DNA of 24,000 nt, taken from positions 1-24,000 of the forward strand of contig JBCBSZ010000001.1 of NCBI GenBank assembly GCA_039818945.1, written 5' to 3'. The position numbers were made by a program, and so were the translations under genes. Of this stretch, positions 2,109-18,583 are shown one piece after another. The stretch is from Actinomycetota bacterium. Its GTDB lineage: Bacteria; Actinomycetota; Acidimicrobiia; Acidimicrobiales; Poriferisodalaceae. Position 1 is the stretch's first letter. Every line of letters begins with the position of its first letter. Below the pieces are notes generated by a model, which made no database searches, was not told where the DNA came from, and was given only the letters and a program-made list of their open reading frames with translations.

Positions 2109-3639
2109 GCGCCACCCCGTCCAGCTCGGCCGGCAGCTCGTCCGTGCGCAACCACGCGTCGAACAGCCCCCGGAGCTCGCGCCCCGACAGCTCCTCGGCC
2201 AGGGACTCGAAGTCCTCCGTCGTCGCGTTCCCGCCGCCGTAGCGCTCGATCCAGGTCCGCAGGAGCTCGAAGAACGCCTCGTCGCCGATCTCGAGTCGCA
2301 GCGCGTGCAGCGTCAGCGCGCCGCGCTGGTAGACCTGCACGTCGAAGAGGTCGCCCTCGGGGTCCTGCACCCGGCGCTGGAGACCCGGGCCGAACGACGC
2401 CGTCTCCGCGATCCAAGCCGCCCAGTCGAAGCGCGGGTCGGAGTGGTCGCGCCACAACGCCTCCGAGTAGGTCGCGAAGCCCTCGTTCAGCCAGATGTCG
2501 CCCCACTCGCGGACGGTCACGTGGTTCCCGAACCACTGGTGGGCGGCCTCGTGGGCGACGATCAGCTCGACGAAGCCGCCGAGGCCGAGCACGTCGGCGC
2601 CGAAGATCGACAGGGTCTGGGTCTCCAACGCTCCCCCGAACCCGTCCTCGACCACGGCGGCGCCGTAGTTGTCGAACGGGTACGGCCCGAAGACCGACTC
2701 GAAGAAGTCGAGGATCTCGCCCTGCCGCGCGAAGCGCGGTGATGCTGCGTCGACGAGGTCGTCGTCGATGACGTTGCGCAGCGGCACCCCGCCGGCCGTC
2801 GTCCCCTCGTCGATGACCGTGAACCCGCCGATGAGCAGGGTAGTCAGGTACGTGGCCTGCGGGTGGGGCTGCTCGAAGACCCACGTGGTCGAGCCGGCCT
2901 CCTCCTCGCTGGAGACCAGCGTGCCCGACGCCCCGACGGTCAGCTCCGAGGGTGCGGTGATCCGGTAGGTGAAGGTCGCCTTGTCACTGGGGTGGTCGTT
3001 GGCCGGGTGGAACGTCGACGCCGACACCGGCTCGCCCGCGACGTAGGCGTACCCGTCGCGGGTGTGCCAACCCGAGGGGATCGGGACGTCGATGCCGGCC
3101 GCCGAGGTGTCCGACGGCCTCCCGGCGTAGGCGACCACGACGGTGAAGGCATCGCCGGACGCGAGCGGCTGCTCCGGCATGACCGCGAGCTCGGTCCCGA
3201 TCTGCTCGAAGTCCGCCGTCGCCCCGTCGACCTGCACCGACGAGACGGTGAGGCCGACCAGATCGAGGTGGAAGCGACCCAGGTCCTCGCTTGCGCTCGC
3301 GGTGATCGTTGCGGAGCCCTCGAGGGTCGCTCCCTCCGGCTCCCAGTCCAGGGCGACGTCGTAGTGCTCGACGTCGTAGCCACCGTTGCCGAAGGTGTCG
3401 ACGTAGGGATCGTCCACCCCGACGGCGCCGACGCCGACCGGCGCAGAGCTCGTGGTCGAGGGCGAGGTCCCGGTGGTGGACGTGGTTCGCGCCTCGGTCG
3501 TCGGCGGTGCGGCGGTCGTCGACGGGGCGGCGCCCTCGTCGTCAGCGGTACCGACCGAGCACGCCGTGACCGCGATGACGACGGCGAGCAGCGCCGACGC
3601 CATCGCTCGACGTCGGATCGGTGCAGCGACGGGATCCAT
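2098..3639 (-). CDS. M1-family zinc aminopeptidase (aminopeptidase N-like), probable lipoprotein
   Basis: Gluzincin signature VAHEAAHQWFGNHVTVREWGDIWLNEGFATY (HExxH-x18-E). GAMEN-position variant GGALET. N-terminus MDPVAAPIRRRAMASALLAVVIAVTAC has a lipobox-like VTAC followed by a Thr/Ser/Pro linker. Start is ATG 3639 (alternative ATG 3603). The ORF-track extension to 4041 runs through the divergent gene and is rejected. Confidence 0.85.
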   Translation of the reverse strand: MDPVAAPIRRRAMASALLAVVIAVTACSVGTADDEGAAPSTTAAPPTTEARTTSTTGTSPSTTSSAPVGVGAVGVDDPYVDTFGNGGYDVEHYDVALDWEPEGATLEGSATITASASEDLGRFHLDLVGLTVSSVQVDGATADFEQIGTELAVMPEQPLASGDAFTVVVAYAGRPSDTSAAGIDVPIPSGWHTRDGYAYVAGEPVSASTFHPANDHPSDKATFTYRITAPSELTVGASGTLVSSEEEAGSTTWVFEQPHPQATYLTTLLIGGFTVIDEGTTAGGVPLRNVIDDDLVDAASPRFARQGEILDFFESVFGPYPFDNYGAAVVEDGFGGALETQTLSIFGADVLGLGGFVELIVAHEAAHQWFGNHVTVREWGDIWLNEGFATYSEALWRDHSDPRFDWAAWIAETASFGPGLQRRVQDPEGDLFDVQVYQRGALTLHALRLEIGDEAFFELLRTWIERYGGGNATTEDFESLAEELSGRELRGLFDAWLRTDELPAELDGVALRP

Positions 3640-3663
3640 GCCCACAGAACGTACGGACTCCGA

Positions 3664-3702
3664 TCTGAGAGTTCCCGAAGAACCATCGAGACCGCTCTCA
3701 GA
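3664..3702. promoter_or_regulatory. 8-bp inverted repeat in the divergent peptidase promoter region
   Basis: TCTGAGAG (3664-3671), 23 nt, then CTCTCAGA (3695-3702), inside the 97-bp lower-GC intergenic region between the starts at 3639 (-) and 3737 (+). Confidence 0.25.
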
Positions 3703-3736
3703 CAGCTCACAGCGACGGTCCGGTTCGGTGGAGGAC

Positions 3737-4912
3737 ATGCTCACACGACGCACCTTCCTCGCCGGGCTCCTCGCGGCGGCGGTCACCGCCGGCGCCTGCT
3801 CCCCCGGCTCCGGCTCGGTGACCGCCGACCCGTCCACACCGGCGCCCAGCTCCACCTCGGCACCGGTCGCGACCGCCGCGGCGACGTCCAGCGTCGACGA
3901 GGACGTCCGCACGATGCTCGGCAACCTCGCCGACCGGTACCGCGCCGCCGAGGGTGCCTGGCCGGGCTTCGACCCGACCGAGCACCCCGCCGTCGTCGCC
4001 TTCCGCGACGGCGAAGAGGTGCAGCGCGTGGTCACGATCAACCACCCGGACCCCGACGCGCTCGGCGAGGCGACGGCGGTCGAGCTCGACGGTCTGCCCT
4101 TCGCCGCTCACCTCGTGACCGACCTGGTCGACCCCGGGTCTCTCGAGGCGATCCCGTCCTTCGACTTCACCTCCCAGCAGGGCGGCGTGAGCTCGTTCGT
4201 CCTGATCGCCGACCCGACCGATGCGTTCTTCGATCCGACGACCGACGAGTACGCCGCCACCTACCTCCACGAGCTCTTCCACCGCCATCAGATCCTCAGC
4301 TGGGTGGAGACCGGGTTCCAGGACATCGAGAACTACCCGCTCACCGCCGACAACCTCGCGCTGGCCACCCTCGAGGAGCGGGCGCTCGCCGCGGCGATGA
4401 CCGCACCGGACGACGACGAGCGAGACCTGGCCGCCCGCCGGTTCGTCGCCCTCCGCCTCCAGCGGCGCTCCGCGGAGTCGGCGGTCGCCGAGCTCGACGA
4501 CGCGCAGGAGGCGGCGGAGGGCACCGCACGGTGGATCGAGCACGCGACCGCAGGACAGGACGACGGAGCCACCTACGACGCCGACAACTTCGACCGCGAC
4601 CTCCAGACCGATCTCGGCGGCGTGCAGGGCGTCAAGGACACCTTCGCCTTCGGCCGCTTCTACGCCTCCGGGGCGGCGGTCGTCGAGTTGCTCGACCGGT
4701 TGGGCGTGGACGACTACCCCGGTCGGATCGCTCGTGGCGAGGCCCCGGCGACCGTGCTCGCCGAGGCGCTCAGCGTCTCCGCCGACGACGTGGACCAGCT
4801 CGTCGCCGACGCCCGGTCCGCCTACGACCCGTCCGCGGAGCTCGCCGACCAGTCGGCGGACGCGGCCGCGATCGCAGCCACCGAGCCGCCGGTCTTCGGC
4901 GAGGACTCCTGA
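3737..4912 (+). CDS. Putative secreted zinc metalloprotease lipoprotein (HExxH motif), family not recognised
   Basis: The ATG at 3737 is preceded by GGAGG 4 nt upstream. N-terminus MLTRRTFLAGLLAAAVTAGAC has a Tat-like RRxFLA and Cys lipobox, then a Ser/Thr/Pro linker. A single HExxH is present (YLHELFHRHQ). GC3 bias is good. Confidence 0.6.
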   Translation: MLTRRTFLAGLLAAAVTAGACSPGSGSVTADPSTPAPSSTSAPVATAAATSSVDEDVRTMLGNLADRYRAAEGAWPGFDPTEHPAVVAFRDGEEVQRVVTINHPDPDALGEATAVELDGLPFAAHLVTDLVDPGSLEAIPSFDFTSQQGGVSSFVLIADPTDAFFDPTTDEYAATYLHELFHRHQILSWVETGFQDIENYPLTADNLALATLEERALAAAMTAPDDDERDLAARRFVALRLQRRSAESAVAELDDAQEAAEGTARWIEHATAGQDDGATYDADNFDRDLQTDLGGVQGVKDTFAFGRFYASGAAVVELLDRLGVDDYPGRIARGEAPATVLAEALSVSADDVDQLVADARSAYDPSAELADQSADAAAIAATEPPVFGEDS

Positions 4913-4957: not shown

Positions 4958-5626
4958 GTGAACGGTCCACGGGTGCTGGTCGTCGAGGACGACGAGCAGA
5001 TCGCCTCGCTCGTGCAGCGGACCCTCGCCGGGGCCGGCATCGACAGCGACCTCGCGTCGACCGGACCCGACGGGCTGTGGAAGGCGCGGGAGGGCAGCTA
5101 CGGGGCCATCGTGCTCGACCTGATGCTGCCCGGCATGAACGGCTACGAGGTCTGCCGGACGCTGCGATCCGAGGGCGTCGCGACCGCGATCATCATGCTC
5201 ACCGCCAAGAGCGGCGAGTACGACGAGACCGACGGCTTCGAGATGGGCGCCGACGACTACCTGCGCAAGCCGTTCTCCACCGCCGTGTTGGCCCACCGCG
5301 TCCAGGCGCTCCTGCGCCGCACCCCGGGCACGACGGTCACCGAACGCCTGACCCGCGGCCAGCTGTCGTTCGACCTGCAGACCAGAACCTGTGAGCTCGA
5401 CGGGGCCGAGGTGGCGCTGACCGCTCGCGAGGCGACGCTGCTCGAGACCCTGCTCCGCAGCGGCGAGACGCCGCTCTCGCGGGCCGATCTGCTCGACCGG
5501 GTCTGGGGCATGGACTTCGACGGTGACCCGAACGTCGTCGACGTCTACGTCGGCTACCTCCGACGCAAGCTCGGTCGGGAGCGGATCGTGAACCGTCGCG
5601 GCGTGGGGTTCCGGGTGGCGCCGTGA
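4958..5626 (+). CDS. OmpR/PhoB-family response regulator
   Basis: Receiver domain (VLVVEDDE...IVLDLMLPGMNG...LTAK...ADDYLRKPF) plus a C-terminal winged-helix (LTAREATLLETLL...VWG...NVVDVYVGYLRRKL...RGVGFRV). GTG start. Confidence 0.9.
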   Translation: MNGPRVLVVEDDEQIASLVQRTLAGAGIDSDLASTGPDGLWKAREGSYGAIVLDLMLPGMNGYEVCRTLRSEGVATAIIMLTAKSGEYDETDGFEMGADDYLRKPFSTAVLAHRVQALLRRTPGTTVTERLTRGQLSFDLQTRTCELDGAEVALTAREATLLETLLRSGETPLSRADLLDRVWGMDFDGDPNVVDVYVGYLRRKLGRERIVNRRGVGFRVAP

Positions 5627-7008
5627 GGTCGCTGCGGGCCCGCATCACGCTGCTCGCCACCGTGGCGCTCGTGCTCGTGCTCGCGACCGCGGCGATCGTG
5701 ATCGTCGTGCTCGTCGAGCGCCAGCTCAGCAACGACCTCGCCGCCCAGAACGAGGCCACCCTGGCCCAGGTCTCGGCGGCCATCGCCGGCGGCCAGGACC
5801 CGGCGACCATCCGCCTGCCGCTCGGCACCGACGGCACCGAGTTCGTCATCACCAACGACGGCCGCTTCGTGCAGGCGACGCTCGTGGTGGTCACCGAGGA
5901 CGTCCTGGAGCCCGAGCTGACCGCTGACGACGTGATCGTCTTCGATCCCGGCTTCCCGTTCGCCTCGCTCGACGCCACCGATCCGTTCGTCGGCGGCGTC
6001 GTGTTCGTCGAGGACGTCCTCGACCAGCGGTTCTGGGACGTGACCTCGACGACGGCGGTGGCTCCCGACGGCGAGGAGTACCTCGTCGAGGCGTTCACCC
6101 CGACCCGCGTCGTCGATCGCAGCGTCGATCAGGTCCGGGCGGTGCTCTGGATCGTGATCCCGGCCCTGGCGGTCCTGTTCGCCCTCCTCGTCTGGTTCCT
6201 CACGGGGCGGACGTTGCGGCCGGTGGCGCTCATGACCGATCGGGCGAACCGGATCCGGTCCGACACGCTCCACGAGCGACTGGCCGAGCCGGGCACCGAC
6301 GACGAGATCGGCCGGCTGGCCGCGACACTCAACTCGATGCTCGAACGACTCGACCGCGGCGCGCAGCAGCAGCGCCGGTTCGTCTCCGACGCCTCACACG
6401 AGCTCAAGAGCCCGCTCACGGTGATGGTCGGCGAGGCCGAGCTGGCCGCGGGGAGCCGCGACGTCGAGCGGCTGGCGGAGGCCAACGAACGGGTGGTCGA
6501 GCGGGGCAGGAACCTGACCGCCCTGATCGACGACCTGCTCGCCCTCGCCCGATCGGACGAGGCCGCCTTCCGGCGGAGCGAGGTCGACCTCGACGACGTC
6601 GTGCGCCAGCAGGCTCGCCTCCAGCCCCGCGACGTCGACACGAGCGGCGTCGAGCCGGTCCGCCTCGACGCCGACGGGGCCGCCCTCTCACGGCTCGTGC
6701 GCAACCTGCTCGACAACGCCGCCCGCCACGCGAACGAGGCGGTCGCCGTGACGCTGACGGCCGACGCCGACGGTGCCGTGCTGGTCGTCGACGACGATGG
6801 CCCGGGCATCGCCGAGCACGAGCGCGACCGCGTCTTCGAACGCTTCGCACGGGCCGACGAGGCCCGGACCCGCGCGACCGGTGGCACGGGCCTCGGCCTG
6901 GCCATCGTGCAGGCCATCGCCCACGGGCACGGCGGGACGGTCGAGATCAGCACCGCACCGATCGGCGGGGCCCGATTCACCGTCCGTCTGCCCGACCGGA
7001 CCCCCTGA
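5623..7008 (+). CDS. Sensor histidine kinase (2 TM, about 150-aa extracytoplasmic domain, HAMP, HisKA, HATPase_c)
   Basis: GTGA overlap with the response regulator stop. H-box FVSDASHELKSPLT, N-box LVRNLLDNAARHA, G1 DDDGPGI, G2 GGTGLGLAIV. TM helices LLATVALVLVLATAAIVIVVLV and VLWIVIPALAVLFALLVWFL. Confidence 0.9.
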   Translation: MRSLRARITLLATVALVLVLATAAIVIVVLVERQLSNDLAAQNEATLAQVSAAIAGGQDPATIRLPLGTDGTEFVITNDGRFVQATLVVVTEDVLEPELTADDVIVFDPGFPFASLDATDPFVGGVVFVEDVLDQRFWDVTSTTAVAPDGEEYLVEAFTPTRVVDRSVDQVRAVLWIVIPALAVLFALLVWFLTGRTLRPVALMTDRANRIRSDTLHERLAEPGTDDEIGRLAATLNSMLERLDRGAQQQRRFVSDASHELKSPLTVMVGEAELAAGSRDVERLAEANERVVERGRNLTALIDDLLALARSDEAAFRRSEVDLDDVVRQQARLQPRDVDTSGVEPVRLDADGAALSRLVRNLLDNAARHANEAVAVTLTADADGAVLVVDDDGPGIAEHERDRVFERFARADEARTRATGGTGLGLAIVQAIAHGHGGTVEISTAPIGGARFTVRLPDRTP

Positions 7009-7110: not shown

Positions 7111-8643
7111 ATGACGATCGACGAGCTCCGTGAGCAGGTGCGATCGGTCATCGACGATCCGACGCTGTCGTTCCACCTCCGCCGCCACCACCTCGCCGGC
7201 CTGGCGGAGTCGATCCTCCCCTACCCCGCGCTGAGCGACCGGTGCCGGGAGGCGCTCGACAAGGGCGTGATCTGCGACCTGTTCGAGGGCAACGCCCCGT
7301 ACCGGCCCCGCTACCTGCTCCCCGACTACGCCAGGGCGCTGGCCCAGGGTTTCGCCTTCCTCGAGCTCGAACCGCCCGACGACCTCGACGATGCGCTGGC
7401 GTTCCTGCTCATCATGTACACGCAGGTCCCGTCGATCACCGGCCATCCGGTCTACCTCGGCGACCTCGACTCCCTGCTGCTCCCGTACACCGCCGAGGTC
7501 TCCGACGAGCACCTGTACCGGTCGCTGCGCCGGTTCTGGATCTCGCTCGACCGGATGCTCCCCGACGCCTTCGTGCACACCAACATCGGGCCGGCGGACA
7601 ACCGGGTCGCCCGGACGATCCTGCGGCTCGAGCGCGAGCTCGACCAGATCGTCCCGAACGTGACGCTCAAGGTCGACCCGGAGCTCACGCCGGACGATCT
7701 CGTCGAGGACGCCGTCCGGACGGTCTTCGAGTGCGGCAAGCCGCACTTCGTCAATCACCCGATGATGGTGCGCGACCTCGGCGAGAGCTACGGCGTGGTC
7801 AGCTGCTACAACTCGCTGCCCGTCGGGGGCGGGGCGCACACCCTGGTGCGGCTCAACCTGCTCGAGGTGGTGCGTCGCCACGAGGGCGACCTCGACCGGT
7901 TCTTCGCCGAGACGCTGCCGGATCACGTCGAGCTGTGCGCCGAGCTGATCGAGGCCCGGGTGCGCCACCTCGTCGAGGTCAACCGCTTCTTCGAGCACGA
8001 CTTCCTCGCCGTCGAGGGGCTCCTGGATCTCGAGCGCTTCACGGCCATGTACGGCATCTTCGGTGTCGCCGAGGCGGTCGACCTGCTGATGGAGCACGAG
8101 GGCAGCGACGCCCGCTACGGCCACGACGCCGAGGCCAACCAGCTGTCCTACCGGCTGACCGAGGCCATCGCCGAGCTGGTCGCCGCCCGCCCGATGCCAC
8201 ACACCGCGGGCTCCGGCGGCCGGTGCCTGCTGCACTCCCAGTCGGGCATCGACAGCGACGAGGGGGTCACCGCCGGCACCCGGATCCCGATCGGGACCGA
8301 GCCCAGCATGTGGGAGCACATCGCCGCCGTCGCCCCCCACCACACACTCTTCGGCGCCGGCGTCTCCGACATCTTCCACGTGGAGGACACCGCCCGTCGC
8401 AACCCGCGGGCGATGGTCGACATCATCCGCGGTGCGCTCACGCAGGGCATGCGCGACTTCACGTTCAACCTCGCCACCAACGGCTTCGTCCGCATCACCG
8501 GCTACCTCGTGCGGAAGGCCGACCTCGAGTCGTTCGAGGAGTGCGGTGGACGCCACGGCAGCACCACCTTCGCCGCCGGCTCGATGCGCAACGCCGACGT
8601 GTCGCGCCGGGCCGTGAAGCGGGTGAGCGGCCGTGAGCGCTGA
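7111..8643 (+). CDS. yjjI: Glycyl-radical enzyme, YjjI-like (DUF3029-type short GRE), substrate unknown
   Basis: 510 aa. The C-terminal FVRITGYLVRK matches the glycyl-radical fingerprint R-[VI]-x-G-[YF] (compare PFL IRVSGYAVRF). The Gly464 codon is at 8500-8502. Candidate thiyl loop is VVSCYNSLPVGGG (Cys232). The gene is immediately followed by, and overlaps, a GRE-activase gene. Size and pairing match the E. coli YjjI/YjjW arrangement as I remember it. SD GAGG lies 7-8 nt before the ATG. Confidence 0.72.
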   Translation: MTIDELREQVRSVIDDPTLSFHLRRHHLAGLAESILPYPALSDRCREALDKGVICDLFEGNAPYRPRYLLPDYARALAQGFAFLELEPPDDLDDALAFLLIMYTQVPSITGHPVYLGDLDSLLLPYTAEVSDEHLYRSLRRFWISLDRMLPDAFVHTNIGPADNRVARTILRLERELDQIVPNVTLKVDPELTPDDLVEDAVRTVFECGKPHFVNHPMMVRDLGESYGVVSCYNSLPVGGGAHTLVRLNLLEVVRRHEGDLDRFFAETLPDHVELCAELIEARVRHLVEVNRFFEHDFLAVEGLLDLERFTAMYGIFGVAEAVDLLMEHEGSDARYGHDAEANQLSYRLTEAIAELVAARPMPHTAGSGGRCLLHSQSGIDSDEGVTAGTRIPIGTEPSMWEHIAAVAPHHTLFGAGVSDIFHVEDTARRNPRAMVDIIRGALTQGMRDFTFNLATNGFVRITGYLVRKADLESFEECGGRHGSTTFAAGSMRNADVSRRAVKRVSGRER

Positions 8644-9493
8644 GCGGCGGGGGTTGGTCAACCGCTGCCTGCCGTTCAGCATGGTCGACGGTCCGGGCAA
8701 CCGGTTCGTCGTGTTCCTGCAGGGCTGCAACTACGACTGCGTCGGGTGCCACAACCCCCACACGATCAACGCCTGCAACGGGTGCGACGTGTGCGTCGAG
8801 GCCTGCCCCGAGCTGGCGCTCACGATGCGCCCCGGCGCACCGCCCGCGCTCGATCTCGACGCCTGCACCGACTGCGACCGATGCGTCGAGGAGTGCGGCT
8901 TCGACTCGACCCCGCTGGCGCGCGAGCTCACGGTGGCCGAGCTGCTCGATCGGGTCCGCCCCCACGCTCCGTTCCTCTCCGGCATCACCGTCTCCGGCGG
9001 CGAGGCGACGCTGCAGGCCGGGTTCGTCCGCGACCTCTTCGCCGCGACCAAGGCCGATCCCGAGCTGCGGCACCTCACGACCATGGTCGACACGAACGGC
9101 TCGGCGCCGCAGGAGGTCTGGGACCTGCTCGCCCCGGTCACCGACGGCTTCCTCGTCGACCTGAAGGCCTGGGATCCGGCCGTGCACCAGCGCCTGACGA
9201 GCGCCCCCATCGGTCCGGTGCTCGACTCGATCGCCCACCTGGCCGCGCTCGACCTGCTCCACGAGGTCCGGATGCTGATCGTCGGCGACGAGAACGACCG
9301 GCACGGCGACGTCACCGCCGCCGCTGCCTGGCTGCGCTCCGTCGCCCCCGACGTGCCGGTCAAGATGTACGGCTTCCGCCATCACGGGACCCGGCCCCAG
9401 GCGGCCTCCCTCCGGGAGCCGACCGGCGAGGAGCTGCGCCACCTCGCCGAGATCGTCCGCACCACCGGCGAGCGCGAGGTCGTGCTCGTCTGA
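8633..9493 (+). CDS. yjjW: Glycyl-radical enzyme activating protein (radical SAM, YjjW-like)
   Basis: 286 aa. Radical-SAM cluster GCNYDCVGCHNP (CxxxCxxC followed by the HNP typical of GRE activases). Two ferredoxin-like Cys motifs (CNGCDVCVEACP, CTDCDRCVEEC). SAM-binding-type GITVSGGEATLQ. The GTG start overlaps the GRE stop by 11 nt. Confidence 0.85.
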   Translation: MSAERRGLVNRCLPFSMVDGPGNRFVVFLQGCNYDCVGCHNPHTINACNGCDVCVEACPELALTMRPGAPPALDLDACTDCDRCVEECGFDSTPLARELTVAELLDRVRPHAPFLSGITVSGGEATLQAGFVRDLFAATKADPELRHLTTMVDTNGSAPQEVWDLLAPVTDGFLVDLKAWDPAVHQRLTSAPIGPVLDSIAHLAALDLLHEVRMLIVGDENDRHGDVTAAAAWLRSVAPDVPVKMYGFRHHGTRPQAASLREPTGEELRHLAEIVRTTGEREVVLV

Positions 9494-9508: not shown

Positions 9509-10429
9509 ATGGGTACCGTCGTCGGCATGGCCGTCGACCTCGAGCTGCTCCGCTCGTTCGTCGCGGTCGCCGAGGAGGGCCACGTCGGACGGGCCGCAGC
9601 GCGGCTCTACGTCTCGCAGCCGGCCCTGACCAAGCGGCTCCACCGACTCGAGGAGCAGGTCGGCGCCTCCCTGTTGCAACGGGCCGGTCGCGGCATCGAG
9701 CTCACCGAGGCCGGACGGTCGCTGGCCGATGAAGCGTCCTCGATTGTGGCCACCGCCGACGCCGCGGTCGAGCGGGCCCGGCACGTCGCCGGTGGAACCG
9801 CCGACCAGATCTCGATCGGCTTCGTCGCGCCGATGCCCCACGAGATCACCACCGACCTGCTCCGAGCCGCCCGCGACCGGCCGGGGCCCGACGTCGCGCT
9901 CCGCTCGCTCGCGTGGGACGAGCAGCTGGCCTCGGTGCTCGCCGGCGCCGTCGACGTCGCCCTGGTGCGGGGACCGATCGAGGGACTTCCCGAGGCCGGC
10001 CGGATCGGCGACGGCCTGCGCTGCGAGCTGCTCTTCGAGGAGCGGCGGGTCGCCGCGTTCGCCGTCGATCACCCGCGGGCGACGGAGGACGTGATCGAGC
10101 TGGCCGACCTGGCCGACGAACCGATCGTCGCACCCGAGGTGAACACGAGCTACTGGACGGTCGACCCGAGACCCGACGGCCGATCACCCCGACTCGGTCC
10201 GGCCGTGTCGACGGTCGTGGAGATGCTCGAGGTCGTCGCATCGGGACAGGCGATGGTCCTGACCGCCGAGTCGGTGAGCACCTACTACCAGCGACCCGAC
10301 GTGGCCTACGTGCCGGTCGCCGACCTCTCGCCGTCGACCGTGCACCTCGTCTCGGGCGACCCGCCGACGGCAGCGGTCGCCGAGCTGACCGAGGAGATCA
10401 GGGAGCGATCGGCACCGCTGCGGGGGTGA
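9509..10429 (+). CDS. LysR-family transcriptional regulator
   Basis: N-terminal HTH LELLRSFVAVAEEGHVGRAAARLYVSQPALTKRLHRLEEQVGASLLQR plus a LysR substrate-binding-type C-terminal half. Start is ATG 9509 or ATG 9527. Confidence 0.9.
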   Translation: MGTVVGMAVDLELLRSFVAVAEEGHVGRAAARLYVSQPALTKRLHRLEEQVGASLLQRAGRGIELTEAGRSLADEASSIVATADAAVERARHVAGGTADQISIGFVAPMPHEITTDLLRAARDRPGPDVALRSLAWDEQLASVLAGAVDVALVRGPIEGLPEAGRIGDGLRCELLFEERRVAAFAVDHPRATEDVIELADLADEPIVAPEVNTSYWTVDPRPDGRSPRLGPAVSTVVEMLEVVASGQAMVLTAESVSTYYQRPDVAYVPVADLSPSTVHLVSGDPPTAAVAELTEEIRERSAPLRG

Positions 10430-10441
10430 CAGACTCCCCCG

Positions 10442-11986
10442 GTGGCCGACGACCAGACGTTCCACGACGACATCGAGGGGTACTGCGGCCGACTGAGCCA
10501 TCGCCCAGGTGAGACCGCCCAGCTCCACGTCTCGACCCGAGCTGACCGGTACGACGTGACCGTCGAGCGGTGGGGAGCAGAGCGTGAGCTCGTCTGGTCG
10601 GCGGCCGGGCTGACGGGGGTCTGGACGCCGCCGCCCGACGATGCCGACGCCGCGGGCTGCAGCTGGCCGGTCTCGGTCGAGATCCCGATCGGCGAGGGGT
10701 GGCGCAGCGGCTTCCACCTCGTCACGCTCACCGCGGTCGGTGCCGAACCCGGCCGAGACGTCGCCCACGCCGGCTTCGTGGTCCGCGGTCCGATCGACGT
10801 CGACGAGCGAGCCCCGATGCTGCTCGTGCTCGAGACGAACACCTGGAACGCCTACAACACCTGGGGCGGACGCAGCCTCTACACCGGTGGGCACCGCGTG
10901 TCGTTCGAGCGGCCGTTCGGCCGCGGGATGCTCTGTCGGCCGGAGATCGACCGCGACGACCGCAAGGCCCGTCCGGTCCGCTGGCGGGAGACCCCCGACG
11001 CCGACGGTCTGATCTTCCAGGAGCACCGCACGGCCAACGCCTACCCGTCGGCGATCGGCTCGACCGGCTGGTTCACCCACCCCCGCCGGTTCGTCGAGTG
11101 GGCCGAGGCCGCGGGCTACCGCTTCGACGTGGCGGTCTCGACCGATCTCGACACCGATCCGGAGGCGCTCGACGGCTACGAGCTCGTCGTGAGCGTCGGC
11201 CACGACGAGTACTGGTCGGCTCCCCAGCGCGACGCGATCGAGGCCCACGTCCGCAGCGGCGGAGCCTTCGCCTCGTTCTCCGGCAACACGATGTTCTGGC
11301 AGGTCCGCCACGAGGGCTCGTCCATGGTGTGCCACAAGTACCGGGCGCACCTCGACGACCCGGTCGTCGCCGAGGGCCGGGTCGCGGAGGCGACCGGGAT
11401 GTGGGCCGACCCGATCGTCGGCCGGCCCGAGTGGTCGCTGCTCGGCGCCGGCTCCGCCTTCGGCCTCTACCACCGCTTCGGTCAGGCGACCGCCCGCGGC
11501 GTCGGTGGGTTCGTCGTCTACCGGGCCGACCACTGGTTGGTGGAGGGCACGGGTCTGCGCTACGGCGACGTGCTCGGCGCCGACGACGGCGTCGTCGGCT
11601 ATGAGACGCTCGGCTGCCCGATCACCCTCGACGAGCTACAGCTGCCCGTGCCCTGGCCCCGCGACGACCTGCCCGCCGACCTCGAGATCGTCGGCCACGT
11701 CGCGTCGAGCAACCTCGGCGTCGGCGAGTACCCGAAGTCGATCGCGGCGCTCAGCGACCAGGGCGATCTGGAGTTCATCGCCACCCGACTCCACGGCGAC
11801 ACGAGCGAGCGCAACCTCGCACGGGTGCGCAACGGCAACGCCGTGATGGCGGTCGGACGCCCGTTCGGCCCGGGCGGCGGCGAGGTCGTGACGGTCGGGA
11901 CGACGGACTGGGTCTTCGGTCTGGCCGACGATCCCGCCGTCGCCCGCGTGACCGCGAACGTCCTCGATCGACACCGGTCGGGGTAG
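10442..11986 (+). CDS. N,N-dimethylformamidase large-subunit-like (DUF6605-type) family protein
   Basis: Motifs I associate with this family: LLVLETNTWNAYNTWGG, VSVGHDEYWSAPQRD, ASFSGNTMFWQVR, VVGYETLG. 514 aa. GTG start 12 nt after the LysR stop. The family assignment is from memory and was not searched. Confidence 0.55.
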   Translation: MADDQTFHDDIEGYCGRLSHRPGETAQLHVSTRADRYDVTVERWGAERELVWSAAGLTGVWTPPPDDADAAGCSWPVSVEIPIGEGWRSGFHLVTLTAVGAEPGRDVAHAGFVVRGPIDVDERAPMLLVLETNTWNAYNTWGGRSLYTGGHRVSFERPFGRGMLCRPEIDRDDRKARPVRWRETPDADGLIFQEHRTANAYPSAIGSTGWFTHPRRFVEWAEAAGYRFDVAVSTDLDTDPEALDGYELVVSVGHDEYWSAPQRDAIEAHVRSGGAFASFSGNTMFWQVRHEGSSMVCHKYRAHLDDPVVAEGRVAEATGMWADPIVGRPEWSLLGAGSAFGLYHRFGQATARGVGGFVVYRADHWLVEGTGLRYGDVLGADDGVVGYETLGCPITLDELQLPVPWPRDDLPADLEIVGHVASSNLGVGEYPKSIAALSDQGDLEFIATRLHGDTSERNLARVRNGNAVMAVGRPFGPGGGEVVTVGTTDWVFGLADDPAVARVTANVLDRHRSG

Positions 11987-12022
11987 GCACCGCCGCGGGA
12001 TCTCCCTCGGACCTGGCCGGAC

Positions 12023-12046
12023 GCGGTGCCGGCCCCGGGGCACCGC
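12023..12046 (+). terminator. Hairpin after the DMFase-like gene (candidate terminator)
   Basis: GCGGTGCC (12023-12030), an 8-nt loop, then GGCACCGC (12039-12046), 37 nt after the TAG at 11984-11986. No U-tract. Confidence 0.25.
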
Positions 12047-12102
12047 CACTACCGTCGGGGCCCGATGAGGAGGACTCGACGCCCCCGGAGGCGCATCGCA
12101 CC

Positions 12103-13344
12103 GTGAGCGCCTGCGGCTCCTGCGGCCACCCGCTCCGCGACGACGATGCGTTCTGCTCGAGCTGTGGGGCTCGCCGGGAGCCGGCGGTCGTCAGCCTGAC
12201 CGGGGGCGGTGAGACCGCGGTCGAGCAGCGGACGGTGGTCGGGGCTCGCCGTCGCAACCTGGTGCCGCTCGTCGCCGTCGTCGCGCTCCTCGCCGTCGCC
12301 GGCCTCGTGGCGCTGTCGCGGTCGACCGACGAGCCGGAGGCCGAGGCGTCGCCGACCACGACGATCGCCTCGCCACCGACCGAACCACCAACCACCGAGC
12401 CCGCACCGCCGCCGCCCGACCCGGTCGGCGACGACGAGGACCTCGTGCTCGACGGTCTCGACCAGCTCGGCCTGGGACCGAACCGGCTCGCGGTGCGCTC
12501 CGGCGAGGTCGTGTTCACCTACGACCCCGACGCCGGCTCGCTGCTCGCCCGCCACGACCTCACCCGATCGAGCGGCGGCGACATCTGGTTCGGCGACGAC
12601 GAGCTGATCATGCGGAGCCAGGGTCAGACCGGACCGGGCATGTCGGTCCTCGAGCTCGACACCGGCCGCTTCCGCAACTACGTCGGCATCAACTTCATCG
12701 TCAGCGACGCCTCCGCCGACCTGGTGGTGGGCCAGGAGTTCGGTCGCTTCTTCGGTGGTGGACGATGGGCGGTCGTCGACGTGGACGGGTTCTCGATCGA
12801 CCGGGTCGAGATCGCCGGCACACCCGCCTTCACGTTCCTCGCCGCGGCCGGTGACGGCGTGCTGCTCGACGAGGGCGGCCAGATCGTGCACCTCCGCGAC
12901 GGCGAGCGCACCGCCCTCGGCTCCGGCACCCTCATCTCGTGGTCCGAAGAAGCCGCCCTCATCGGCACCTGCGACGCCGAGCTCGACTGCCGGACCCGAT
13001 CGGTCGCCTTCGACGGCAGCGACATCGTCGAGGGGCCCGGGCTGACCCTGCCGCCGCTCTCGCTCGGTGGTGAGGTGCGGTGGCTCTCGCCCGACGGTCG
13101 GATCCTCGCCGCGGTCGACCCCGCCGCTCGCCTGCTCGACCTGATCGACGTCGAGACCGGGGAGTCCCTCCCCCACGAGCTGGGCCGGACCGGGACCCAC
13201 TCGCTGCTCTGGACCCCGGACTCGACCAGGGTGATCGTGGCCGACGACGACGCCGTCGCCGTCGTCGACGTCGCCTCGGGCGCCGTGGTCAGCGCCCCCG
13301 CATCGGCGAGGGTGGACCAGGTCGGCTTCGTCGACCCGACCTGA
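12103..13344 (+). CDS. Zinc-ribbon / single-TM / PD40-type beta-propeller membrane protein, function unknown
   Basis: N-terminal CGSCGHPL-x9-CSSCG zinc ribbon. TM helix LVPLVAVVALLAVAGLVAL. Pro/Thr linker PPTEPPTTEPAPPPPDP. C-terminal repeats of the WLSPDGRILAAV / LLWTPDSTRVIVAD (TolB/PD40-like) type. GTG start, with GGAGG 11 nt upstream. Confidence 0.6.
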   Translation: MSACGSCGHPLRDDDAFCSSCGARREPAVVSLTGGGETAVEQRTVVGARRRNLVPLVAVVALLAVAGLVALSRSTDEPEAEASPTTTIASPPTEPPTTEPAPPPPDPVGDDEDLVLDGLDQLGLGPNRLAVRSGEVVFTYDPDAGSLLARHDLTRSSGGDIWFGDDELIMRSQGQTGPGMSVLELDTGRFRNYVGINFIVSDASADLVVGQEFGRFFGGGRWAVVDVDGFSIDRVEIAGTPAFTFLAAAGDGVLLDEGGQIVHLRDGERTALGSGTLISWSEEAALIGTCDAELDCRTRSVAFDGSDIVEGPGLTLPPLSLGGEVRWLSPDGRILAAVDPAARLLDLIDVETGESLPHELGRTGTHSLLWTPDSTRVIVADDDAVAVVDVASGAVVSAPASARVDQVGFVDPT

Positions 13345-13348
13345 CGGG

Positions 13349-13855
13349 TCACTCCGGGCGCTGCTTCGCCGCCTCCGGCGAGCGGGTCCACATGATCGCC
13401 GAGTCGAAGCTGAGCTTGTCGTCCGGCTCGAACTCGATGACGACCCGCGCCGGGCTGTCGAGGAAGCGCTGGAAGGTCGTCGCGGCCACCTCGTCGTCGG
13501 GCCGCAGACGGCGGGCGAACTCCGGGTAGAACCAGTCCTTCACGTCACGACCGGAGTGCACGGTGCACGACCCCTTGTAGGTGACGGTCTTGCCCGAGCC
13601 GAGCGGCGTCCCGAAGCTGCTGATGCACACCGAGGCCCGTGGGAACCGGCGGATCGCCGAGATCCGGGCGCGCCGCTCAGCGGCCGTGAGCCAGAGCTTC
13701 CCCTCCTTCGGGAGGTACGACATGATCACGCCGAACGCCTCGCCGGCCCGGTTCGTCCACATGAAGGTGCACTCGTTCTGGACGGCGAGGAGCTGCTCCT
13801 CGAGCTCGTCGCTCAGCGCGCACTCGGTCAGGTCCTCGTAGTTGTCGTCCGCCAT
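13349..13855 (-). CDS. Pyridoxamine 5'-phosphate oxidase (PPOX)-like split-barrel flavoprotein family protein
   Basis: 168 aa with good GC3. The pattern LSDELEEQLL...CTFMWTNRAGEAFGVIMSY...GKLWLTAAERRARISAIRRFPRASVCIS resembles PPOX/FMN- or F420-binding split-barrel proteins. It lies 22 nt downstream of the aldolase gene on the same strand. Confidence 0.5.
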   Translation of the reverse strand: MADDNYEDLTECALSDELEEQLLAVQNECTFMWTNRAGEAFGVIMSYLPKEGKLWLTAAERRARISAIRRFPRASVCISSFGTPLGSGKTVTYKGSCTVHSGRDVKDWFYPEFARRLRPDDEVAATTFQRFLDSPARVVIEFEPDDKLSFDSAIMWTRSPEAAKQRPE

Positions 13856-13877: not shown

Positions 13878-14750
13878 TCAGCAGACTCGGCGGGCCTCCG
13901 AGGTCGCCGACACCAGCATGTCGAACCGCTCCACACCGACCGACGAGAGACGGCCTCGTCGGTCTGGCGCGCCGATCGAGTCGCCCCAGATCGCGCGGCC
14001 CGCCATGAACCCGGAGCAGCCGTTCGCACAGGCCACCTCGGTCTGGCGGACGAACAGCTCGAAGGGGGCGCCCCACGACAGCACCGCCCAGGGTTGCCCG
14101 GTGACCTCGTCGACCCGACGACAGGCGTCGTCCCACCGCTCGGGATGGTCGGCCGCGGACGGGAAGGGCATCTTGATCACGTCGGGCCCGAGCGCCCCGA
14201 TGCGCTCGGCGGAGGCGACGATCGTGCGCTCGCGATCCTCGACGTCGACGACCTCGTACGGCACCGGCTCGACGAAGAGCGGGAGACCGACCTCGCCGCA
14301 CCCGTCGACGACCGAGCGGATCAGGTCGTCCTGGGCGGCCGTGACCTCGCCACGGTCGGGGCGGTACAGCACGAGCAGCTTGGCCGCGGACGCACCGACC
14401 TCGGCAGCACGGCGTGGGCTCCAGCCCTCGAGGAGTTGGTTGGTGACGACCCCGGCATCACCGAGGTACCCCTGCGCCTCGAGCGCGCACAGGGTGCCGA
14501 CCCCCGCGGGGACCAGCCCGGCCCGGAGGAGCTGATCGATGGACAGCTCGGGGTCGAGCATCACCGCCGAGGGGCGGTCGCCGAACACCTCGACGACATC
14601 GATCTTGAAGCGCACGAGCTCCTCGACCGACACGCCGTCGGGATCGTCGCGGTCGAACTCGACGCGCAACGAGTCGCGGTGGTCGATCGCCAGGACGGTC
14701 AGCCGGCCGTCGTCGTCGACGAGCGGCCGGAGCGCCTCGCGCCCGATCAC
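13878..14750 (-). CDS. Class I aldolase of the LacD/DUF2090 type; likely 5-dehydro-2-deoxyphosphogluconate (DKGP) aldolase of the inositol pathway
   Basis: LTVLAIDHRDSL near the N-terminus and GPDVIKMPFP (candidate Schiff-base Lys) resemble tagatose-bisphosphate/YihT-type class I aldolases and the DUF2090 domain fused to IolC in other bacteria. It sits directly after iolC-iolB. The GTG start is 8 nt after the iolB stop. Confidence 0.6.
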   Translation of the reverse strand: MIGREALRPLVDDDGRLTVLAIDHRDSLRVEFDRDDPDGVSVEELVRFKIDVVEVFGDRPSAVMLDPELSIDQLLRAGLVPAGVGTLCALEAQGYLGDAGVVTNQLLEGWSPRRAAEVGASAAKLLVLYRPDRGEVTAAQDDLIRSVVDGCGEVGLPLFVEPVPYEVVDVEDRERTIVASAERIGALGPDVIKMPFPSAADHPERWDDACRRVDEVTGQPWAVLSWGAPFELFVRQTEVACANGCSGFMAGRAIWGDSIGAPDRRGRLSSVGVERFDMLVSATSEARRVC

Positions 14751-14757
14751 CTCCGCA

Positions 14758-16529: not shown

Positions 16530-16549
16530 GGCCAGCCCCTCCCCGGTCT

Positions 16550-16571
16550 CGACTTGGAGCGCTCCAAGTCG
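16550..16571. promoter_or_regulatory. Perfect 22-bp palindrome, candidate repressor operator (LacI-family-like) at the predicted +1 of iolC
   Basis: CGACTTGGAGC|GCTCCAAGTCG with 22/22 symmetry. The central GAGCGCTC is identical to the core of the ideal symmetric lac operator. It begins 5-6 nt after the -10 hexamer and ends 20 nt before the GTG at 16529. Confidence 0.5.
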
Positions 16572-16576
16572 CTCAG

Positions 16577-16604
16577 ACCCTACGCCACCACACGGACCTG
16601 TCAA
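16577..16604 (-). promoter_or_regulatory. Sigma-70/HrdB-type promoter of the iolC-iolB-aldolase-PPOX unit
   Basis: The minus strand reads TTGACA (16604-16599), a 16-nt spacer, then TAGGGT (16582-16577, fitting TAnnnT). It lies between a terminator-like hairpin and the iolC start. Confidence 0.45.
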
Positions 16605-16645
16605 GCGGTCGGGATCGCTCGTGAACAGGCCGAACGGGGGCGCGA

Positions 16646-16684: not shown

Positions 16685-16694
16685 CTGCACGGCA

Positions 16695-18558: not shown

Positions 18559-18583
18559 CATCGGCTCCAGCCCGCGGCAGGCC

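What the first reader, a model, noticed from the sequence alone, without database searches (positions are those of the whole stretch)
7111..9493. Orphan short glycyl-radical enzyme (YjjI type) with its own activase in a high-GC actinobacterial-type locus
Seen in sequence:
- A 510-aa protein ends with FVRITGYLVRKADLESF. This aligns residue for residue with the glycyl-radical fingerprint of pyruvate formate-lyase (IRVSGYAVRFNSLTKEQ). The radical Gly would be G464, codon 8500-8502.
- A single well-placed Cys loop, VVSCYNSLPVGGG (C232), is a candidate thiyl site.
- The next gene overlaps by 11 nt and has the GRE-activase hallmarks CNYDCVGCHNP plus two ferredoxin-type 4-Cys motifs.

Established knowledge: this size and pairing correspond to the YjjI/YjjW family (DUF3029; I recall TIGR04040/TIGR04041). 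As far as I know, its substrate and reaction have never been determined. It is about 250-350 aa shorter than characterised GREs (PFL, CutC, HPAD, benzylsuccinate synthase and others).

Inference: an O2-labile radical enzyme of unknown chemistry, here outside the enteric and clostridial settings where I know this family, is a good entry point to new radical biochemistry.
Basis: partly seen in the sequence, partly recalled or inferred. Interest (0 to 1): 0.8.

Follow-up and report, generated by a model that had tools for sequence, protein, structure and literature searches.

The report
YjjI glycyl-radical enzyme with its activase
This is an ordinary, already-annotated member of the YjjI/YjjW glycyl-radical enzyme family, whose reaction is still unknown; comparing about 130 related loci gives a new, testable lead that the family works in anaerobic nucleoside breakdown.

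Summary
ORF 7111-8643 is a full-length YjjI-family glycyl radical enzyme (TIGR04040, 677 bits against a cut-off of 498). ORF 8633-9493 is its YjjW activase (TIGR04041, 300 against 250). The exact protein is already in NCBI under that name. A 2026 preprint still calls E. coli YjjI uncharacterised.

New here:
- The AlphaFold model (pLDDT 89.7) is closest to class III ribonucleotide reductase NrdD, not to pyruvate formate-lyase.
- Only yjjW is a constant neighbour.
- In 12 of 128 non-redundant lineages, spanning three YjjI clades, yjjIW adjoins nucleoside uptake or catabolism genes. Seven of these lie within 500 bp, in differing gene orders. One example is yjjI-yjjW-cdd-pdp-deoC-deoB-PNP, and E. 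coli yjjI is divergent from deoCABD.

The window itself carries no such genes. Its neighbours are a two-component system, a LysR regulator and a DMFA2_C-like gene.

Verdict: known family and known unknown. Interest is moderate, and only because of the nucleoside lead.

The parts
7111..8643 (+). yjjI: 510-aa YjjI-family glycyl radical enzyme
   Evidence: PF11230 scores 642 bits over residues 19-502. TIGR04040 scores 676.8 bits against a cut-off of 498.3. It is 47% identical to E. coli YjjI over 508 aa. The AF2 model has pLDDT 89.7 and is closest to NrdD.
7804..7806 (+). Codon of Cys232, the putative thiyl-radical cysteine in the invariant motif S231-C232-Y233-N234
   Evidence: It is the only Cys invariant in 19 divergent representatives and in 172 sequences. 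It aligns to PFL C419. In the model it sits at the tip of the beta-hairpin E227-231/E234-237.
8500..8502 (+). Codon of Gly464, the putative glycyl-radical site (R461-I-T-G464-Y-L-V-R)
   Evidence: It is invariant. It aligns to PFL RVSG734Y and to E. coli YjjI G465, which was labelled in vivo by a radical-trapping probe. In the model it sits at the tip of the hairpin E459-462/E465-468.
8633..9493 (+). yjjW: 286-aa radical-SAM activase, overlapping yjjI by 11 nt
   Evidence: TIGR04041 scores 300.5 bits against a cut-off of 250.2. The generic GRE-activase models all score below their cut-offs. It is 41% identical to E. coli YjjW. yjjW was detected (tblastn) in 81 of 85 non-redundant loci of the first sample.
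8726..8749 (+). Radical-SAM cluster motif C32-x3-C36-x2-C39 of YjjW
   Evidence: Read directly from the translation. Radical_SAM and Fer4_12 Pfam hits.
8774..8896 (+). Two ferredoxin-type CX2CX2CX3C motifs (C48-C58, C78-C88) forming an insert for auxiliary [4Fe-4S] clusters
   Evidence: with Fer4_7, Fer4_10 and Fer4 Pfam hits. The insert is missing from the 236-241-aa activases of some relatives.
9509..10429 (+). LysR-family regulator, 15 nt downstream of yjjW; probable cognate regulator
   Evidence: HTH_1 plus LysR_substrate domains. Orthologues at 41-55% identity lie directly beside yjjIW in four other lineages. L009 has it downstream on the same strand, and L013, L014 and L019 have it upstream and divergent.
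10442..11986 (+). DMFA2_C-like protein, 12 nt after the LysR gene; possibly co-transcribed but not part of the conserved module
   Evidence: PF20254 scores 218 bits. It is found next to yjjIW only in this window among 85 loci.
4958..7008 (+). OmpR-type response regulator (4958-5626) and HAMP/HisKA histidine kinase (5623-7008), ending 102 nt upstream of yjjI; context only
   Evidence: Pfam. It is not conserved beside yjjI. The only distant matches lie 6-8 kb away on the opposite strand in L069 and L079.

Best explanation
The locus encodes a genuine two-gene glycyl-radical system of the YjjI/YjjW family.

Mechanism, with the basis of each step:
1. Shown from sequence: YjjW carries a CX3CX2C radical-SAM cluster and two ferredoxin-type clusters.
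2. Established for GRE activases and inferred here: reduced YjjW cleaves S-adenosylmethionine. The resulting 5'-deoxyadenosyl radical abstracts a hydrogen from Gly464 of YjjI, leaving a stable, oxygen-labile glycyl radical.
3. Inferred from the canonical GRE mechanism and the model's two finger loops: in each turnover the radical passes to Cys232 on the facing hairpin. The thiyl radical abstracts a hydrogen atom from the substrate, the substrate radical rearranges or eliminates, and the product radical takes the hydrogen back.

Substrate. It is unknown. My best-supported proposal (probability about 0.4) is a nucleoside-derived molecule: a nucleoside, or a ribose or deoxyribose phosphate. YjjI would then be a catabolic offshoot of the NrdD-like branch of the superfamily, working alongside the Bmp-type nucleoside ABC transporter and the cdd/pdp/deoC/deoB/PNP pathway under anoxia. 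The exact chemistry is speculative (about 0.15). A sugar-centred elimination started by H-abstraction, as in RNR, seems likelier than NrdD-type reduction.

Probabilities: identity about 0.97; active radical enzyme about 0.85. The confidence value given is for identity plus the generic mechanism.
For: Identity:
- HMM scores above the curated cut-offs, and 47% and 41% identity to E. coli YjjI and YjjW.
- In 172 sequences from the actinobacterial and Clostridia-type samples plus E. coli K-12 YjjI, E59, R67, Y68, Y103, D120, D147, H156, T193, S231, C232, Y233, N234, R247, H375, Q377, D383 and R391 are strictly invariant. R461 and G464 are identical wherever aligned.

Fold:
- The model has pLDDT 89.7 and pTM 0.90. 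C232 and G464 each sit at a beta-hairpin tip.
- Foldseek's top 20 hits are all NrdD (E 1.7e-17 to 3e-13, TMq up to 0.76), followed by PflD/YbiW, HypD and PFL.
- The profile aligns C232 to PFL C419 and RVTGY to RVSGY.

Activity in vivo in the E. coli orthologue:
- G465 was labelled by a radical-trapping probe.
- yjjIW is FNR-activated and strongly induced anaerobically in Yersinia.

Nucleoside lead:
- Of 128 lineages non-redundant at 90% identity, 12 have nucleoside uptake or catabolism genes within 10 kb. Seven are within 500 bp (6.05 events per 100 kb of flank), against 0.15 per 100 kb at 5-10 kb.
- The gene orders differ between loci: L136 yjjI-yjjW-cdd-pdp-deoC-deoB-PNP with gaps of 8-176 nt; L119 yjjI-yjjW-Bmp-ABC-perm-perm-amidohydrolase-PNP-GntR; L146/L151/L157 Bmp-ABC-perm-perm-yjjI-yjjW; L003 Bmp-ABC-perm-perm-cdd-yjjI-yjjW plus add, PNP, deoC and UPRT; L065 divergent; L095 deoC-pdp-rSAM-yjjI-yjjW; E. 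coli yjjI divergent from deoCABD, with CRP peaks in the shared control region.
- E. coli deoCABD queries hit 1.5% of gene-locus pairs, against 0.24% for 15 control genes.
Against: - The window itself has no nucleoside gene near yjjIW.
- About 90% of lineages show no such neighbour. These include the closest relative with usable flanks, Dactylosporangium, a Nanopelagicales MAG, Tepidibacter and Lutispora, and two lineages represented by P0122 and P0123, whose taxonomy was not determined.
- Two of the twelve cases (E. coli, L003) prompted the hypothesis.
- The loci are the 'best 80' of two scans, not a random sample.
- Assigning Bmp/PnrA-like transporters to nucleosides rests on the family name.
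- No coordinates were available, so the Gly464-Cys232 distance was not measured.
- The argument against reductive chemistry is soft. Cys55 is present in 97% of the 172 sampled sequences, although His or Asp replaces it in several divergent representatives.
Confidence: 0.85

Rival explanations
1. YjjI acts on a substrate unrelated to nucleosides. The adjacency to nucleoside genes in about 9% of lineages would then reflect a shared anaerobic or carbon-catabolite regulatory setting, or a secondary specialisation of some members.
For: - Most loci have no informative neighbour.
- In one Clostridia-type subgroup the recurring neighbours are the housekeeping block ruvA-ruvB-spoIID-queA-tgt.
- Other neighbours vary widely: aminotransferase plus MFS, p450 genes, DHFR.
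Against: - Nucleoside genes are concentrated within 500 bp of yjjIW and arranged as operons.
- The association recurs in three YjjI clades with different gene orders.
- The polar invariant residues are identical in linked and unlinked members, which argues against sub-functionalisation.
Confidence: 0.4
2. YjjI is a minimal class III ribonucleotide reductase that makes deoxyribonucleotides for DNA synthesis.
For: NrdD is the closest fold. There is a weak Pfam NRDD hit of 28.7 bits. hhalign gives 80% probability over 328 columns.
Against: - No NCBIfam NrdD model is matched.
- There is no ATP cone, and no conserved C-terminal Cys4 zinc site. Only C232 is invariant.
- The thiyl loop reads SCYN, without the Met or Cys partner of NrdD.
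- E. coli has both NrdD and YjjI.
- L157 and L161 encode a genuine NrdD (657 bits) with NrdG upstream on the same strand as yjjIW.
Confidence: 0.03
3. YjjI is a PFL-like 2-keto-acid formate-lyase. This is the historical annotation of H. influenzae HI0521 as a pflB homologue.
For: Weak profile hits to PFL (E 0.0017-0.005), with the Cys and Gly loops in register. A 2011 paper cites the older annotation.
Against: - Ser231 replaces PFL Cys418, so the Cys-Cys pair needed for acyl transfer is missing.
- The window protein has no PF02901 or PF01228 hit at E <= 0.01.
- It is 250 aa shorter than PFL, and its fold is closer to NrdD.
Confidence: 0.04
4. YjjI serves anaerobic nitrogen metabolism (nitrate or nitrite), as proposed from co-expression in E. 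coli and Salmonella.
For: yjjI falls in a bicluster with narG and has FNR and NarP-like motifs upstream. It is FNR-activated.
Against: Co-expression with the anaerobic regulon is expected for any oxygen-labile enzyme. No nitrate, nitrite or nitrogen-assimilation gene appeared among the neighbour clusters I annotated or queried across the ~170 surveyed loci.
Confidence: 0.07
5. The gene pair is an inactive relic in an aerobic actinobacterium.
For: Several host genera of close relatives (Nocardioides, Dactylosporangium, Ilumatobacter) are, to my knowledge, described as aerobes, and a glycyl radical is destroyed by oxygen.
Against: Both ORFs are intact with strong coding GC3 bias (0.94 and 0.96). 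All 32 family-invariant residues are retained. The pair is kept across dozens of actinobacterial species.
Confidence: 0.03

Closest known systems
E. coli YjjI (b4380) and YjjW (b4379); TIGR04040/TIGR04041; Pfam PF11230 (formerly DUF3029)
   Same: Same length (510 against 516 aa), with 47% and 41% identity end to end. Both have the SCYN Cys loop, the R-x-T-G-Y Gly loop, overlapping yjjI-yjjW genes, and the ferredoxin insert in the activase.
   Different: The host is a high-GC Actinomycetota MAG. The neighbours are a two-component system, LysR and a DMFA2_C-like gene, where E. coli has deoCABD. There is no functional difference that I can detect.
[quoted passage not shown]
   Same: Closest solved fold (Foldseek E 1.7e-17, TMq 0.74-0.76). 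It is a glycyl radical enzyme of similar size, with a single thiyl Cys on a finger loop. It is linked to nucleoside and nucleotide metabolism by genomic context.
   Different: YjjI has no ATP cone, no conserved Zn-ribbon cysteines and no invariant second Cys, and its thiyl loop reads SCYN. It does not reach any NrdD family model in NCBIfam. It coexists with true NrdD in the same genome.
Pyruvate formate-lyase PflB with PflA
   Same: The Gly fingerprint R-V/I-S/T-G-Y-x-V-R and the position of the catalytic Cys (C419) line up. The activase logic is the same.
   Different: YjjI is 250 aa shorter. Ser replaces Cys418. YjjW carries two extra ferredoxin-type clusters, unlike PflA. The fold match is weaker (E about 1e-10 to 1e-11).
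PflD/YbiW, named in the PDB entries for complexes with 1,5-anhydromannitol-6-phosphate and 1,5-anhydroglucitol-6-phosphate, and other GRE eliminases (HypD, propanediol and glycerol dehydratases)
   Same: These are the next-best structural matches after NrdD (E 4e-13 to 1e-10). They are a precedent for GRE chemistry on a sugar phosphate.
   Different: To my knowledge the eliminases carry a G-C-x-E loop with a Glu two residues after the Cys, where YjjI has an invariant Asn (S-C-Y-N). They are about 800 aa long.

Membership tests
YjjI family glycyl radical enzyme (TIGR04040 / PF11230) | Full-length match to the family HMM above the curated cut-off | tested here: met
   TIGR04040 scores 676.8 bits against 498.3, covering residues 9-503 and profile positions 2-497 of 497. 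PF11230 scores 642 bits against 23.
YjjI family glycyl radical enzyme (TIGR04040 / PF11230) | C-terminal glycyl-radical motif R-[VI]-[ST]-G-[YF] with an invariant Gly | tested here: met
   R461-I-T-G464-Y. R461 and G464 are invariant in 19 divergent representatives and identical wherever aligned in 172 sequences.
YjjI family glycyl radical enzyme (TIGR04040 / PF11230) | A single invariant Cys in the S-C-Y-N loop | tested here: met
   S231-C232-Y233-N234 is invariant in all 172 sequences.
YjjI family glycyl radical enzyme (TIGR04040 / PF11230) | Adjacent dedicated YjjW-type activase gene | tested here: met
   The activase gene overlaps by 11 nt and scores 300.5 bits on TIGR04041 against 250.2. 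yjjW was detected (tblastn) in 81 of 85 related loci.
Glycyl radical enzyme superfamily | Ten-stranded alpha/beta barrel with the Gly and Cys finger loops inserted from opposite ends | tested here: met
   The AF2 model has pLDDT 89.7. Foldseek gives probability 1.00 to NrdD, PFL, HypD and others, with TMq up to 0.76. C232 and G464 each lie at a hairpin tip, and about ten further strands are present.
Glycyl radical enzyme superfamily | Gly Calpha and Cys Sgamma within radical-transfer distance (about 4-5 A) | not testable with these tools
Glycyl radical enzyme superfamily | Formation of a glycyl radical on activation (EPR doublet) | not testable with these tools
   This needs an experiment. Indirect support: E. 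coli YjjI G465 was labelled in vivo by a radical-trapping probe.
YjjW family GRE activase (TIGR04041) | HMM score above the cut-off; CX3CX2C radical-SAM motif; N-terminal DGPGxR motif; two CX2CX2CX3C motifs | tested here: met
   300.5 against 250.2; C32/C36/C39, DGPGNR at residue 19, C48-C58, C78-C88.
Class III ribonucleotide reductase NrdD | Match to NrdD family models above their cut-offs | tested here: not met
   No NCBIfam NrdD model is listed for the protein. Pfam NRDD gives only 28.7 bits over residues 182-454.
Class III ribonucleotide reductase NrdD | C-terminal Cys4 zinc site and a second catalytic Cys (E. coli C175; residue number from my own knowledge) | tested here: not met
   Only C232 is invariant. 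C55 is frequent but His or Asp replaces it in several representatives. There is no C-terminal Cys cluster.
Pyruvate formate-lyase | Adjacent Cys-Cys pair (C418-C419) and PFL-like/Gly_radical Pfam domains | tested here: not met
   S231-C232 stands in place of C-C. There is no PF02901 or PF01228 hit at E <= 0.01.

The most novel reading that the evidence does not exclude
YjjI is a so far unrecognised radical enzyme of anaerobic nucleoside catabolism. It would be an NrdD-like glycyl radical enzyme that has lost allosteric control and the zinc site. It would act on an imported nucleoside or on the ribose or deoxyribose phosphate released from it, for example by H-abstraction on the sugar followed by elimination, feeding the DeoC route. 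The actinobacterial copy in this window would do the same job under hypoxia.
Probability: 0.3. Interest if true: 0.8.

Novelty: already known. Interest (0 to 1): 0.4.

Why it matters
YjjI is one of the few proteins of E. coli K-12 that clearly belong to a radical-enzyme superfamily and still have no known reaction. This window adds nothing new to the family's definition.

The comparison it prompted narrows the search for a substrate. The closest fold is ribonucleotide reductase. The only functional theme that recurs in the neighbourhoods is nucleoside uptake (Bmp-type ABC transporter) and catabolism (cdd, pdp/deoA, deoC, deoB, PNP).

If that holds, anaerobic nucleoside degradation contains a radical step missing from current pathway maps. 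A short, defined substrate panel could then settle a question that has been open since the E. coli genome was annotated.

Tried and rejected
- **Sequence search of the PDB with the single protein.** Only chance hits to amylosucrase, E 0.06. The family profile reached GREs only weakly.
- **Measuring the Gly-Cys distance.** No model coordinates are exposed in the sandbox.
- **Genome scan with the 19-sequence alignment.** It failed for lack of a conserved stretch. I repeated it with 6 sequences.
- **De novo neighbour clustering in the actinobacterial sample.** Nothing beyond yjjW was conserved in more than 15 of 90 loci.
- **The window's own neighbours as functional partners.**
  - The DMFA2_C-like gene is found only here.
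  - The two-component system is not conserved.
  - Only the LysR gene recurs, in 5 lineages.
  - A second LysR next to yjjIW in L179 is not an orthologue.
- **ruvAB-queA-tgt as a functional link.** I judged this to be inherited synteny of a housekeeping block.
- **NrdD/NrdG proximity as a general feature.** It occurs in only two related lineages.
- **Promoter and terminator scans.** They found nothing and are uninformative at 72% GC.
- **hhalign mapping of the NrdD catalytic residues.** The register around the Cys loop is unreliable at 13-16% identity, so I drew no residue-level conclusions.
- **Literature.** No paper in the searchable library assigns a reaction or reports the nucleoside association.
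Full report
**1. Observation**

The two ORFs exist exactly as described.

- **yjjI.** ORF 7111-8643 (+) encodes 510 aa. The motif FVRITGYLVRKADLESF occupies residues 459-475 and Gly464 is codon 8500-8502. VVSCYNSLPVGGG occupies 229-241, with Cys232 at codon 7804-7806.
- **yjjW.** ORF 8633-9493 (+) encodes 286 aa and overlaps the first by 11 nt. It carries CNYDCVGC (C32/C36/C39), two CX2CX2CX3C motifs (C48-C58, C78-C88) and the activase-type DGPGNR motif.
- **Coding signal.** Both frames show the strong third-position GC bias of real genes in this 72% GC window: 0.94 and 0.96.
- **Start codon.** ATG 7111 is the first start codon after the upstream stop.

The only imprecision is 'ends with': the Gly motif lies 35 residues before the C-terminus.

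**2. Identity**

- The 510-aa protein matches Pfam PF11230 (YjjI-like) at 642 bits. It matches NCBIfam TIGR04040 at 676.8 bits against a curated cut-off of 498.3, end to end.
- The 286-aa protein matches TIGR04041 (YjjW activase) at 300.5 bits against 250.2. All other GRE-activase models fall far below their cut-offs.
- Identity to E. coli K-12 YjjI and YjjW is 47% and 41% over the full length, and E. coli G465 aligns with G464 here.

**3. How new is it?**

It is not new.

- The identical protein is already in NCBI as 'MAG: YjjI family glycine radical enzyme [Actinomycetota bacterium]'.
About 70 of the best 80 are Actinomycetota: Acidimicrobiia/Ilumatobacteraceae, Nocardioides, Nanopelagicales, Dactylosporangium and Dermatophilaceae.
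- At 50% identity clustering the family has only 501 representatives, about 20 of them full length, so it is compact.

The statement that the reaction is unknown does hold in the literature I could search.

[quoted passage not shown] It reports labelling of Gly465 by a radical-trapping probe in living cells.
- A review of the superfamily from June 2026 never mentions YjjI.
- A 2011 paper noted an NrdD-like fold prediction and co-expression with the FNR/NarP regulon, and guessed at nitrogen metabolism.
- yjjI and yjjW are FNR-activated in E. coli and strongly induced anaerobically in Yersinia.

**4. Structure and catalytic residues**

An alignment of 19 divergent full-length members (31-62% identity) leaves 32 invariant positions. 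A single Cys (C232, in S-C-Y-N) and G464 (in R-x-x-G) are among them.

In 172 sequences from the actinobacterial and Clostridia-type samples plus E. coli K-12 YjjI, the polar set E59, R67, Y68, Y103, D120, D147, H156, T193, S231, C232, Y233, N234, R247, H375, Q377, D383 and R391 is strictly invariant.

The AlphaFold2 model is confident (pLDDT 89.7, pTM 0.90). It places C232 and G464 at the tips of two beta-hairpins, which is the arrangement of the two finger loops in GREs.

Foldseek against the PDB gives class III ribonucleotide reductases as the 20 best hits (E 1.7e-17 to 3e-13, TMq up to 0.76). PflD/YbiW, HypD, PFL and the other eliminases follow.

At sequence-profile level the family is about equally remote from NrdD and PFL. 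C232 aligns with PFL C419, and Ser231 with C418.

YjjI lacks several features:
- the NrdD ATP cone;
- a conserved zinc-ribbon;
- an invariant second Cys;
- the Cys-Cys pair of PFL;
- the Glu two residues after the Cys that the eliminases have (to my knowledge).

One caveat applies. Cys55 is present in 97% of the 172 sampled sequences, although His or Asp replaces it in several divergent representatives. A second redox-active Cys is therefore not strictly excluded.

**5. Genomic context of the window**

On the + strand the genes run as follows:
- OmpR-type response regulator (4958-5626);
- histidine kinase (5623-7008), then a 102-nt gap;
- yjjI, then yjjW, then a 15-nt gap;
- LysR regulator (9509-10429), then a 12-nt gap;
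- DMFA2_C-like protein (10442-11986).

Only the LysR gene recurs elsewhere. Orthologues at 41-55% identity lie directly beside yjjIW in four other lineages, either downstream on the same strand or upstream and divergent. It is probably the cognate regulator.

The closest relative with usable flanks (78% identity) shares no neighbour with the window.

**6. What does the family do?**

I surveyed three sets of loci:
- 84 non-redundant actinobacterial-type loci;
- four Clostridia reference loci;
- a fresh sample of 80 metagenome loci from the Clostridia-type clade.

De novo clustering shows that only yjjW is a constant neighbour. One Clostridia-type subgroup sits beside the housekeeping block ruvA-ruvB-spoIID-queA-tgt, which I read as inherited synteny.

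The single functional theme that recurs is nucleoside uptake and catabolism. The arrangements are:

| Locus | Gene order around yjjIW |
|---|---|
| L136 | Bmp-ABC transporter (divergent), then yjjI-yjjW-cdd-pdp-deoC-deoB-PNP, gaps 8-176 nt |
| L119 | yjjI-yjjW-Bmp-ABC-permease-permease-amidohydrolase-PNP-GntR |
| L146, L151, L157 | Bmp-ABC-permease-permease-yjjI-yjjW |
| L161 | same transporter run, with GT4 and EndoIII genes between it and yjjI-yjjW |
| L003 | Bmp-ABC-permease-permease-cdd-yjjI-yjjW, with add, PNP, deoC, UPRT and a phosphomutase downstream |
| L065 | add-cdd-permeases-ABC-Bmp, divergent from yjjI-yjjW |
| L095 (Natronincola) | deoC-pdp-rSAM-yjjI-yjjW |
| E. coli | yjjW-yjjI divergent from deoCABD |

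In E. coli, CRP ChIP peaks lie inside yjjI and in the shared control region.

The numbers are as follows.
- After collapsing lineages at 90% YjjI identity, 12 of 128 carry such genes within 10 kb.
- Seven are within 500 bp (6.05 events per 100 kb of flank), four at 0.5-2.5 kb (1.0), none at 2.5-5 kb and one at 5-10 kb (0.15).
- If placement were uniform, at least 7 of 12 events falling in the 7.2% of flank closest to yjjIW has a binomial probability of about 6e-6. With a generous 15% chance of adjacency per event it is about 7e-4. Both figures are my arithmetic on the numbers.
- E. coli deoCABD queries hit 1.5% of gene-locus pairs, against 0.24% for 15 unrelated control genes.
- The twelve YjjI proteins are 38-78% identical to one another and fall in three clades.

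**7. Limits of that inference**

- About 90% of lineages, including this window, show no such neighbour.
- Two of the twelve cases prompted the hypothesis.
- The loci are the best matches of two scans, not a random sample.
- The nucleoside specificity of the Bmp/PnrA-like transporters rests on the family name.
- Two further lineages, represented by P0122 and P0123, were negative; their taxonomy was not determined.

A genuine NrdD-NrdG pair lies upstream on the same strand as yjjIW in L157 and L161. That shows YjjI is not a substitute NrdD. The proximity occurs only in those two related lineages.

**8. Mechanism I commit to**

YjjW reductively cleaves SAM and installs a radical on Gly464. The radical shuttles to Cys232, which abstracts a hydrogen atom from the substrate and takes it back from the product.

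| Claim | Probability |
|---|---|
| Identity as a YjjI/YjjW pair | about 0.97 |
| Active radical enzyme | about 0.85 |
| Substrate derived from nucleosides | about 0.4 |
| Sugar-centred elimination started by H-abstraction, as in RNR (rather than NrdD-type reduction) | about 0.15 |

The last row is speculative.

**9. Verdict**

The family is known and annotated, and the setting is common, so the finding itself is 'already known'. Its residual interest lies in the open question of YjjI's reaction. For that question the context survey and the NrdD-like fold provide a concrete substrate panel that can be tested cheaply.

Noticed in passing
window 13878-23679 (- strand): A myo-inositol catabolism-type cluster: a DeoC/LacD-family aldolase, IolJ-like (13878-14750); IolB/KduI (14758-15558); a PfkB kinase, IolC-like (15555-16604); and a TPP enzyme, IolD-like (21796-23679). 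The aldolase is not a DeoC orthologue, since DeoC queries gave no tblastn hit.
   Followed up: partly
window 18584-21298 (-) and 16695-18287 (-): Inside the iol-type cluster lies a 904-aa SARP/AfsR-like regulator (Trans_reg_C + AAA_16 + TPR). Next to it is a 530-aa ORF with a strong coding GC3 signal (0.93) but no Pfam hit.
   Followed up: no
window 406-1407 (+), 2098-4041 (-), 12103-13344 (+): Three further ORFs: a DUF2064 protein, an M1-family aminopeptidase, and a 413-aa ORF with an N-terminal zinc ribbon. The last lies in a stretch (about 12000-13350) with no clear GC3 coding signal.
   Followed up: no
window 8774-8896; L003 11564-12289; L006 11514-12239; L136 8608-9318: YjjW activases come in two architectures. 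The 278-294-aa form has a two-cluster ferredoxin insert (this window, E. coli, many Clostridia). The 236-241-aa form lacks it (some Actinomycetota and some Clostridia-type loci).
   Followed up: partly
L093 7499-8008; L097 2-265; L131 2289-2741; L178 6407-7309: A dihydrofolate reductase gene lies directly beside yjjIW in three Clostridia-type lineages, and in Caminicella it overlaps the yjjI start. FolD lies 2.7 kb upstream in the closest actinobacterial relative. This may be a second link to nucleotide or one-carbon metabolism.
   Followed up: partly
L157 135-2754; L161 2-2399: A genuine class III RNR, NrdD (NRDD 657 bits) with NrdG, lies upstream on the same strand. It is followed by endonuclease IV, a GT4 transferase, endonuclease III, the Bmp-ABC transporter and yjjI-yjjW.
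   Followed up: yes
L095 3017-7815: In Natronincola a sulfatase gene precedes deoC-pdp, and a radical-SAM/SPASM maturase gene lies between pdp and yjjI-yjjW, all on the same strand.
   Followed up: no
L117, L126, L155, L163 and about 8 more loci, downstream of yjjW: In one Clostridia-type subgroup yjjIW sits immediately upstream of ruvA-ruvB-spoIID-queA-tgt on the same strand. A phosphoribosyltransferase-domain gene, a YcbB-type response regulator and an NhaC-type antiporter lie upstream.
   Followed up: partly
L003, L015, L050, L054, L055, L063, L082, L178: Cytochrome P450 genes recur within 10 kb of yjjI in eight actinobacterial lineages. This is odd company for an oxygen-labile enzyme, but it may simply reflect how many P450 genes these genomes carry.
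   Followed up: no
L020, L022, L034, L050: Close YjjI relatives occur in genera that I know as aerobes (Dactylosporangium, Nocardioides, Ilumatobacter). It is unexplained when an oxygen-labile glycyl radical enzyme would be active in them.
   Followed up: no
L011, L025, L032, L047, L071, L089: A few MAGs labelled Verrucomicrobiales, Thermus/Deinococcus group or Trueperaceae, Deltaproteobacteria and Saprospiraceae carry YjjI 59-72% identical to the actinobacterial protein. This could be horizontal transfer or mis-binned contigs.
   Followed up: no
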